In this document: piece by piece, positions 8,593 to 8,956 of the stretch
Position numbering within the stretch: position 1 is the first letter of the stretch
Layout of the letters: each line of letters starts with the position of its first letter
UHGV virus genome: UHGV-0020097
Length of the DNA stretch: 33,631 bases
Origin: a virus
Direction: 5' to 3' (one strand)
Made by a program: the position numbers and the translations under genes
The notes under the pieces: model-generated
The model's database searches: none
The model's input: the letters and a program-made list of their open reading frames with translations, nothing else
Told to the model about the DNA's origin: nothing

Positions 8593-8774
8593 AAAACCGT
8601 AAAGCAAAAATTCTGTTAGCTCGAAGAAACGGTGTTGGGGTCTGGCGATGGTTGAGGATTAGTAACAGACGAGTGAGGTTGACAGGGTGTTGCGGGGTGA
8701 TGGGACACAGTTGTTGCAAAAAGCCCAGCGCGGCACAAAACCGCTGGAGGAATCACGGAGCAACAACACGATGA
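8589..8774 (+). CDS. Hypothetical small basic Cys-rich protein (61 aa)
   Basis: ATGA overlap with the upstream gene; internal start within tracked ORF 8325..8774; motif CCGVMGHSCC. Confidence 0.35.
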   Translation: MKNRKAKILLARRNGVGVWRWLRISNRRVRLTGCCGVMGHSCCKKPSAAQNRWRNHGATTR

Positions 8775-8956
8775 AAACTATCACTGTAACGGTTGAAATC
8801 GACGTTCCTGATAACGCAACGGACAATGATATTGCTGATTTTGTCGATGTCGAGTATGGGGAGTGCGGAAAAATGGCACTTGATAACCCATGCCGGACAG
8901 ATGGAACGGAAATACTCGATGCCAGATGGGAACACGGACCTGATTACGCGGGGTGA
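8771..8956 (+). CDS. Hypothetical highly acidic small protein (61 aa)
   Basis: ATGA overlap with the upstream gene; sequence MKTITVTVEIDVPDNATDNDIADFVDVEYGE... is rich in Asp/Glu. Confidence 0.45.
   Translation: MKTITVTVEIDVPDNATDNDIADFVDVEYGECGKMALDNPCRTDGTEILDARWEHGPDYAG

What the first reader, a model, noticed from the sequence alone, without database searches (positions are those of the whole stretch)
8771..8956. Highly acidic 61-aa early protein, a DNA-mimic / anti-restriction candidate
The product (MKTITVTVEIDVPDNATDNDIADFVDVEYGECGKMALDNPCRTDGTEILDARWEHGPDYAG) carries a large excess of Asp/Glu over basic residues and is embedded in the coupled early operon. Small acidic early phage proteins often act as DNA mimics that inhibit restriction enzymes, CRISPR effectors or other DNA-binding defence proteins. 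This is inference from composition and context only.
Basis: inference. Interest (0 to 1): 0.55.

Follow-up and report, generated by a model that had tools for sequence, protein, structure and literature searches.

The report
Orphan acidic phage accessory protein
This is a real, conserved 61-residue, very acidic protein gene in the early operon of a Mu-like prophage. It belongs to a small uncharacterised family that moves between unrelated phages, and the idea that it mimics DNA to block host defences is plausible but has no direct support.

Summary
The ORF at 8771-8956 (+) is real. It encodes 61 aa with 15 Asp/Glu against 4 Lys/Arg (net -11, pI about 4.05). It has a GGAG ribosome-binding site and its start overlaps the upstream stop as ATGA.

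The window is a Mu-like prophage, and the gene lies in the dispensable early region between an Ead/Ea22-like gene and gemA.

- **Family:** it matches phrog_8773 (unknown function), a rare family of 54-68 aa proteins. 62 of 63 members are acidic, and eight acidic positions are each conserved in at least 70% of members.
- **Selection:** dN/dS is 0.03-0.15 where synonymous change is not saturated.
- **Mobility:** the gene sits among small early genes of Mu-like, lambdoid (exo-xis region), P2-like, about 73-kb and about 110-kb phage or phage-plasmid, and Bacteroidales phage genomes.
- **Dispensability:** some E. coli prophages have lost it through an in-frame 132-bp deletion.
- **Fold:** the AlphaFold model (pLDDT 84) is a small beta-alpha-beta unit with no meaningful match in the PDB or BFVD.
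- **Known families:** there is no sequence match to Ocr, ArdA, Ral, anti-CRISPRs or any defence family. No known anti-defence gene appeared among the neighbour families listed.

The DNA-mimic / anti-restriction reading is neither supported nor refuted. My best guess is an acidic decoy that binds a basic host protein. It is a reasonable screening candidate of modest interest.

The parts
8771..8956 (+). Gene for the 61-aa acidic protein (member of phrog_8773). Predicted fold: strand 4-11, helix 18-28, short helix 40-43, strand 47-55.
   Evidence: Translation; charge and pI; PHROG match at E 4.5e-47; family search; AlphaFold2 model with pLDDT 84.3 and pTM 0.65; dN/dS 0.03-0.15.
8757..8760 (+). 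GGAG Shine-Dalgarno-like motif 10 nt upstream of the ATG. Similarity to the STEC313 and 20KM0223N prophages begins about 25 nt upstream of the ATG, which marks the upstream edge of the shared cassette.
   Evidence: Sequence; alignment with relatives in which the upstream flanks diverge.
8771..8774 (+). ATGA overlap: the start codon of the acidic gene overlaps the stop codon of upstream gene 8589-8774, giving translational coupling.
   Evidence: Sequence.
8589..8774 (+). Upstream neighbour: a 61-aa, extremely basic protein (net +16, with CC...CC motifs; phrog_1380, unknown function). It is context only, not a conserved partner.
   Evidence: It occurs without the acidic gene in phiV10 and Stx phages, and the acidic gene occurs without it elsewhere.
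8961..9212 (+). Downstream neighbour: an 83-aa protein with a hydrophobic N-terminal segment and several Cys (phrog_8391, unknown function). It starts 4 nt after the acidic gene's stop. It follows the acidic gene in the Mu-like prophages only.
8807..8817 (+). CCTGATAACGC, the left copy of the short direct repeat that bounds the natural 132-bp in-frame deletion seen in relatives.
8939..8949 (+). CCTGATTACGC, the right copy of the same repeat. Deletion between the two copies leaves a 17-codon stub (MKTITVTVEIDVPDNAG*) and keeps the downstream junction intact.

Best explanation
The gene encodes a small, folded, strongly acidic beta-alpha-beta protein. It is a dispensable accessory cassette expressed from the early operon of a Mu-like prophage.

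Shown:
- It is a real protein under purifying selection.
- Its acidic residues are conserved at specific positions across strand 1, the helix and strand 2.
- It is exchanged between unrelated phage lineages, always among small early or accessory genes.
- It is lost in some lineages.

Inferred: it acts without catalysis, as a stoichiometric decoy. Probably as a dimer, it presents a conserved carboxylate-rich surface to a positively charged, most likely nucleic-acid-binding, protein of the host or of a competing element. It blocks that protein early in infection or induction. A restriction or other DNA-targeting defence enzyme is one candidate target. A nucleoid protein, a repair or recombination enzyme, or RNA polymerase are equally open.
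For: - **Charge:** net -11 in 61 aa, pI 4.05, the most acidic product in the window.
- **Family-wide acidity:** 62 of 63 full-length members are acidic, with a median of -0.14 per residue. E9, D11, D14, D20, D23, E28, D38 and E47 are each acidic in 70-94% of members.
- **Selection:** dN/dS is 0.03-0.15.
- **No enzyme or cofactor signature:** Pfam, NCBIfam, PDB and PADLOC all return nothing. 61 residues is small for an enzyme.
- **Cassette behaviour:** the same family occurs in Mu-like prophages, in the lambdoid exo-xis region, in a P2-like element, in about 73-kb phages, in about 110-kb phage-plasmids and phages, and in Bacteroidales phages. Phage accessory regions are described as hotspots of variable, horizontally exchanged, non-essential anti-defence genes (bioRxiv 10.1101/2023.04.06.535777).
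- **Dispensability:** 3 complete E. coli genomes carry the deletion variant and 6 carry the intact gene, out of 5,426.
- **Precedent:** short ArdA-derived DNA mimics, about a third the length of ArdA, protect against type I restriction (PMC12548430).
Against: - Many of the conserved residues can be explained structurally. P13-D14 ends the strand, A16-T17-x-x-D20 is a helix capping box, and D38-N39-P40 is a helix start. Conservation therefore does not prove a binding surface.
- The neighbour families listed across about 11 contexts include no known anti-defence gene and no HTH (aca-like) family.
- Strong purifying selection and the rarity of the family are not the usual arms-race signature.
- The phage also carries its own DNA methyltransferase (13504-14244), which may already cover restriction evasion.
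- Acidity alone is a weak predictor of function.
- No experimental data exist.
Confidence: 0.35

Rival explanations
1. It is a developmental or host-physiology modulator, like the genes of the lambda exo-xis region. It would tune the lysis-lysogeny decision, induction efficiency or host replication and cell cycle by binding a host regulator, with no role in anti-phage defence.
For: - In lambdoid relatives the gene lies between the recombination genes (ERF, SSB) or Ea22-like genes and the Rv2179c-like exonuclease, xis and int, which is the exo-xis region.
- Ea22-like genes are its commonest neighbours, including in this Mu-like window at 7817-8419.
- Chimeric ORFs join Ea22 segments to the family: P0023/L028 and P0027.
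- Characterised exo-xis genes (ea22, orf63, orf61, orf60a, ea8.5) affect lysogenisation and induction (PMC7093339, PMC3824215).
- Strong purifying selection fits a conserved host target.
Against: - The family also occurs in about 73-kb and about 110-kb phages and in Bacteroidales phages, where exo-xis logic does not obviously apply.
- Association with Ea22 may only reflect a shared recombination hotspot.
Confidence: 0.25
2. [quoted passage not shown] This is the narrow form of the first reader's idea.
For: - The charge and pI are similar to those reported for Ocr and ArdA (pI about 4; quoting 10.1101/2023.04.06.535777).
- The gene is expressed early.
- Short sArdA proteins work as anti-restriction proteins (PMC12548430).
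- DNA mimics have very divergent sequences and are hard to predict (PMC3902945 abstract), so lack of homology is not decisive.
Against: - No ArdA, Ocr or Ral family match. The only Ral hit is 1 of 28 members at E 0.043, which is the chance level.
- The predicted fold is unlike solved mimics.
- The gene is not at the leading end of the genome, where entry-phase anti-restriction genes usually sit.
- The family was not found on conjugative plasmids; all plasmid hits are non-mobilizable.
- The phage carries its own methyltransferase.
Confidence: 0.12
3. It is a neutralising partner or chaperone for the two extremely basic proteins encoded immediately upstream (8419-8592, net +14; 8589-8774, net +16), forming an acid-base complex.
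For: The three genes are linked by ATGA overlaps and have opposite extreme charges.
Against: - The two basic genes occur at 79-92% nucleotide identity in phiV10 and many Stx phages, with similarity ending just before the acidic gene's ribosome-binding site.
- The acidic gene occurs without them in other Mu-like prophages (L001 has an extra gene in between; L005 and L007 lack them) and in all non-Mu contexts.
- So there is no conserved pairing.
Confidence: 0.05
4. It is a functionless or decaying ORFan, kept only because its translation is coupled to the downstream gene.
For: - The gene is dispensable: an in-frame deletion preserves the start, the stop and the downstream junction.
- It is rare: 6 of 5,426 complete E. 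coli genomes carry it.
Against: - dN/dS is 0.03-0.15.
- The motif structure is conserved down to about 35% identity across distant phages and hosts, including Alteromonas and Bacteroidales.
- A confident compact fold is predicted.
Confidence: 0.03

Closest known systems
phrog_8773 (PHROGs v4, unknown function) and RefSeq 'hypothetical protein' WP_000849710.1
   Same: Full-length match (residues 1-60 of 61, E 4.5e-47). In the STEC313 prophage the gene encodes an identical protein (100% by tblastn) and is 99.5% identical in DNA; it is annotated there as a hypothetical protein.
   Different: Nothing differs. This is the family it belongs to, but the family has no name, function, structure or literature.
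Ocr (T7 gp0.3) and ArdA / small ArdA (sArdN, sArdC) DNA-mimic anti-restriction proteins
   Same: All are small, have pI about 4, and are encoded by mobile elements. Ocr is also expressed early in infection. sArdA shows that a protein about a third the length of ArdA can still block type I R-M (PMC12548430).
Lambda exo-xis region small proteins (Orf63, Orf61, Orf60a, Ea8.5, Ea22)
   Same: In lambdoid relatives the gene occupies the same region, next to Ea22-like genes. Like them it is early transcribed, small and non-essential.
   Different: No sequence or fold similarity was found. Those proteins are not notably acidic decoys. Their known effects are on the lysogeny-lysis balance.
Other acidic phage inhibitor proteins that mimic DNA (T7 gp5.9, T4 Arn, PBS2 Ugi, phi29 p56, AcrIF2, AcrIIA4)
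   Same: They are similar in size (50-120 aa) and acidity, and act as stoichiometric inhibitors of DNA-binding proteins. This comparison rests on general knowledge; gp5.9 as a viral DNA mimic is covered in PMC7617805.
   Different: None appears among the structural or sequence hits. The listed neighbour families include no HTH (aca-like) family.
4-oxalocrotonate tautomerase-like beta-alpha-beta units

Membership tests
phrog_8773 (uncharacterised phage protein family) | Significant full-length match to the family profile | tested here: met
   E 4.5e-47, residues 1-60 against profile positions 1-60 of 61.
Ocr (Pfam PF08684; T7 gp0.3) | Sequence homology to Ocr; all-helical elongated dimer | tested here: not met
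ArdA / sArdA (Pfam PF07275) | Sequence or structural homology to an ArdA domain | tested here: not met
Ral (Pfam PF11058) | Significant match to the Ral profile | tested here: not met
   Only 1 of 28 members matched, at E 0.043. This is the chance level for 28 scans. The window protein did not match.
DNA-mimic proteins (a functional class, not a homology family) | Strong net negative charge and low pI | tested here: met
   Net -11 and pI 4.05. The acidity is conserved in 62 of 63 family members.
DNA-mimic proteins (a functional class, not a homology family) | Surface carboxylates arranged like the phosphate backbone of DNA | not testable with these tools
Only the conservation of acidic positions along the sequence could be shown.
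DNA-mimic proteins (a functional class, not a homology family) | Binds the DNA-binding site of a target protein and competes with DNA | not testable with these tools
   Requires biochemistry (pull-down, EMSA competition) or a complex structure.
Anti-CRISPR (acr-aca loci) | Adjacent HTH anti-CRISPR-associated (aca) regulator, or homology to a known Acr | tested here: not met
   The downstream gene encodes a protein with a hydrophobic N-terminus. No HTH family appears in the 25 families listed (of 43) for 95 neighbour proteins from about 11 contexts. No Acr appears among the PDB hits.
Lambda exo-xis region gene set | Located between the recombination genes and xis/int in lambdoid genomes | tested here: met
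   True of the lambdoid homologues, not of this Mu-like copy. L013: Ea22-like, HNH, unknown, family member, Rv2179c-like exonuclease, xis-sized ORF, integrase. L024: ERF, SSB, then the family member, then integrase further downstream.
Lambda exo-xis region gene set | Homology to Orf60a, Orf61, Orf63, Orf73, Ea8.5 or Ea22 | tested here: not met
Known anti-phage defence system components (PADLOC-DB) | Match to any defence-protein model | tested here: not met
   No PADLOC hit for the protein or for six neighbours.
Tautomerase superfamily (4-OT-like beta-alpha-beta) | Catalytic N-terminal Pro1 and a significant structural match | tested here: not met

The most novel reading that the evidence does not exclude
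The family founds a new fold class of minimal (about 55-60 aa, probably dimeric) DNA-mimic or acidic-decoy anti-defence proteins. It spreads as a cassette among at least six unrelated phage backbones: Mu-like, lambdoid, P2-like, about 73-kb phages, about 110-kb phage-plasmids and Bacteroidales phages. It neutralises a widespread DNA-binding immune or nucleoid protein.
Probability: 0.15. Interest if true: 0.6.

Novelty: new member of a known kind. Interest (0 to 1): 0.3.

Why it matters
If the protein is a decoy inhibitor, it would be one of the smallest known and would have a new fold. The natural deletion variants could serve as controls, and its target could reveal which host factor limits temperate phages of Enterobacterales. 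It might also be a compact tool for blocking a DNA-binding protein.

If it instead tunes lysogeny, it adds a member to the poorly understood exo-xis accessory gene set, which also influences Shiga-toxin prophage induction.

As it stands, it is one of very many uncharacterised small phage accessory genes. It is somewhat better defined than most as a candidate for anti-defence screens.

Tried and rejected
- **Family libraries:** Pfam, NCBIfam and PADLOC gave no hit for the protein. Scanning 28 family members against Pfam gave only chance-level hits: Ral at E 0.043, plus UL148, DUF6965 and STAT_linker.
- **PDB sequence search:** the first profile gave nothing at E up to 10. The broader profile gave only sub-significant local matches, such as the NBR1 PB1 domain at E 0.36 over 20 residues. 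I treat these as noise.
- **Structure prediction:** the first AlphaFold run with 9 sequences was poor (pLDDT 70, one helix only) and was superseded by the 28-sequence run.
- **Related-loci search:** the broad alignment failed because it had no sufficiently conserved stretch, so I repeated it with the closer alignment.
- **Literature:** searches for the RefSeq accession, the PHROG id and family peptides found nothing. The 39 supplementary files of the phage accessory-gene screen contain no family peptide.
- **Acid-base partnership:** I considered a pairing with the two basic upstream proteins and rejected it for lack of co-occurrence.
- **Metal site from the two Cys:** rejected because C32 is poorly conserved and C41 is replaced by Leu or Met in some members.
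- **Plasmid leading-region anti-defence island:** rejected because all plasmid hits are non-mobilizable; the two inspected are a RepB replicon of about 110 kb and a P2-like element.

Full report
**Observation**

It has 15 Asp/Glu, 4 Lys/Arg and 1 His, a net charge of about -11 and a computed pI of 4.05.

At -0.18 charge per residue it is the most acidic product in the window. The next most acidic is the Ea22-like protein at -0.11. Among 352 small plus-strand ORFs in related phage loci, only 1.1% are as acidic.

A GGAG lies at 8757-8760. The ATG overlaps the stop of the upstream gene 8589-8774 as ATGA. That gene in turn overlaps 8419-8592 as ATGA. The next gene, 8961-9212, starts 4 nt after the stop. 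The "coupled early operon" description is correct.

**Context**

The window is a Mu-like prophage. It carries:
- a CI-type repressor on the minus strand (409-1071);
- MuA transposase (1461-3503) and the MuB AAA+ ATPase (3522-4415);
- DUF3164 (4912-5556) and DUF2786/DUF7168 (6242-6952);
- an Ead/Ea22-like protein (7817-8419);
- GemA (within 9444-9938) and Mor (10373-10840);
- then lysis and head genes.

The closest relatives are E. coli prophages annotated the same way. The acidic gene lies in the stretch between MuB and GemA/Mor that corresponds to Mu's semi-essential early region. Every neighbour there is a PHROG of unknown function.

**It is a real gene and a real family**

The protein matches phrog_8773 (unknown function) over its whole length at E 4.5e-47. 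RefSeq annotates it as a hypothetical protein in E. coli STEC313.

A word-indexed search of 5.8 billion proteins found 13 clusters, and 60 when seeded with a family alignment. Every name supplied by a source is "hypothetical protein". An exhaustive HMM search of 1.84 billion representatives found only 35 hits, almost all 54-68 aa.

The alignment shows a clear signature: [IV]x[VLI]T[VL]E[IV][DE]VPDxAT[D]x[DE]IxD[FWY][VL]DVE[YF]G....M..DNPC....E[IV]....W.

Pairwise dN/dS is 0.03-0.15 wherever dS is not saturated. The reading frame is therefore under strong purifying selection.

**Acidity is a family property**

62 of 63 full-length members carry a net negative charge, with a median of -0.14 per residue. 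E9, D11, D14, D20, D23, E28, D38 and E47 are acidic in 70-94% of members.

Some of these residues, together with P13, A16-T17, N39-P40 and C41, have simple structural explanations as a strand end, a helix capping box and a helix start. Conservation therefore does not prove a binding surface.

**Structure**

With 28 family sequences, AlphaFold2 gives a pLDDT of 84.3 and a pTM of 0.65. The topology is strand 4-11, helix 18-28, short helix 40-43 and strand 47-55. A two-stranded unit of this size probably oligomerises, but that is inference.

**Distribution and mobility**

The family occurs in:
- other Mu-like prophages of E. coli (L001, L005-L007), and further Mu-like elements (L019, L021-L023) where it sits just after DUF2786; in L021 GemA- and Mor-like genes follow downstream;
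- lambdoid prophages, in the exo-xis region just upstream of an Rv2179c-like exonuclease, xis and int, or after ERF and SSB (L009-L017, L024, L025);
- a Stx1c phage (L028);
- about 73-kb phages, next to an AAA ATPase and a VWA/DUF2201 pair (Pantoea phage G19, L018);
- about 110-kb Escherichia phages and non-mobilizable Klebsiella plasmids of 104-114 kb; the one inspected carries RepB, which suggests phage-plasmids;
- a P2-like element (ash family protein and replication endonuclease);
- Bacteroidales and other metagenomic phages, among small genes near DnaB, PcfJ/K or methyltransferases;
- Pantoea, Pseudocitrobacter, Izhakiella and Alteromonas genomes.

The family is rare. It occurs in 7 of 50,697 phage records and in 6 of 5,426 complete E. 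coli genomes.

Three further E. coli genomes, plus L027 (which shows the same 16-residue stub by tblastn), carry an in-frame 132-bp deletion. It lies between the repeats CCTGATAACGC (8807-8817) and CCTGATTACGC (8939-8949). It leaves a 17-codon stub and keeps the downstream junction. The gene is thus a dispensable, horizontally exchanged cassette. The shared sequence starts about 25 nt upstream of the ATG.

**Is it in an anti-defence neighbourhood?**

I scanned 95 neighbour proteins from about 11 contexts against Pfam and PHROGs. They are recombination, replication, integration and unknown-function genes: DUF2303, integrases, Ead/Ea22, DUF551, a dNTP pyrophosphohydrolase, an exonuclease, ERF, SSB, a Dam-type methylase and AntA.

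No ArdA, Ocr, Ral, KlcA or HTH (aca-like) family appears in the listed families. The lists show only the 25 most frequent families, so rare neighbours could have been missed. The commonest recurring neighbour is the Ea22-like family.

**Interpretation**

The concept of accessory regions enriched in anti-defence genes is documented (10.1101/2023.04.06.535777). So is the finding that short ArdA-derived mimics, about a third the length of ArdA, work as anti-restriction proteins (PMC12548430).

However, nothing links this family to any defence system. Its location in lambdoid phages is the exo-xis region, whose studied genes modulate lysogeny and induction (PMC7093339, PMC3824215).

My estimates are:
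- 0.35 for a generic acidic-decoy mechanism against a basic, probably nucleic-acid-binding, protein;
- 0.25 for an exo-xis-like developmental modulator;
- 0.12 for the narrow anti-restriction DNA-mimic claim;
- 0.05 for a partner of the upstream basic proteins, since co-occurrence is not conserved;
- 0.03 for a functionless ORFan, which the selection analysis contradicts.

**Verdict**

The functional interpretation cannot be decided with these tools. The gene is a member of an uncharacterised but already catalogued phage protein family. It is a reasonable candidate for anti-defence or host-interaction screening, but not a surprising finding in itself.

Noticed in passing
window 9243-9289: The gap between gene 8961-9212 and the next gene holds three exact copies of ATGTTTTGGTC (9246-9256 minus strand, 9257-9267 plus, 9279-9289 plus). 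The next gene probably starts at ATG 9293, as annotated in the STEC313 relative. The first two copies form a perfect 12-bp-stem palindrome, GCAGACCAAAACAT|ATGTTTTGGTCTGC. As RNA, 9205-9300 folds at -31.4 kcal/mol (z -6.0). It could be an operator, attenuator or terminator inside the Mu-like early operon.
   Followed up: partly
window 8419-8592 and 8589-8774: Two ATGA-coupled genes encode extremely basic small proteins: 57 aa with net +14, and 61 aa with net +16 and CC...CC motifs (phrog_13831 and phrog_1380, both unknown function). This segment (about 8405-8749) is 79-92% identical in DNA to phiV10 and many Stx-converting phages, where it also sits beside ea22-like genes. It is a lambdoid module inside a Mu-like early operon.
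   Followed up: partly
window 7817-8419; L028 2275-2463; L019 6001-6303; protein P0027: An Ead/Ea22-like gene, typical of the lambdoid exo-xis region, sits in this Mu-like prophage. Ea22-like genes are the commonest neighbours of the acidic family. Chimeric ORFs exist. The Stx1c-phage member starts with an Ea22-like N-terminus (MSKINYQAL...). P0027 joins an Ea22-like C-terminal region to the family's N-terminal half. L019 fuses the family to its downstream gene. This suggests a recombination hotspot.
   Followed up: partly
window 8807-8817 and 8939-8949; L002 about 6022-6080; L027: A natural in-frame 132-bp deletion lies between two 11-bp near-repeats. It removes 44 codons of the acidic gene in three complete E. 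coli genomes and apparently in IMG/VR contig L027 (same stub by tblastn). The start, stop and downstream junction remain intact. These variants are ready-made natural knockouts.
   Followed up: yes
window 13504-14244: An orphan N6/N4 DNA methyltransferase (PF01555, E 3e-24) lies between DUF1804 (12957-13457) and the large terminase. It is a possible self-methylation route to restriction evasion in the same phage.
   Followed up: partly
window 9935-10273: A 112-aa protein with a signal-peptide-like N-terminus (MKKLLLLILALCFTGISHA; phrog_5882, unknown function, no Pfam hit) is inserted between GemA and Mor. It is present in some relatives (L001, L006) and is absent from, or replaced in, others (L002, L005, L007). 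It is another variable accessory gene.
   Followed up: no
plasmid records LR890700.1, CP056499.1 (L038), CP110757.1, CP037443.1: Family members at 74% identity lie on 104-114-kb non-mobilizable Klebsiella plasmids. The one inspected (CP056499.1) carries RepB and an exonuclease gene, which suggests phage-plasmids. Their size matches the 108-116-kb phage contigs and isolates that also carry the family (L008, IME392, EP_H11).
   Followed up: partly
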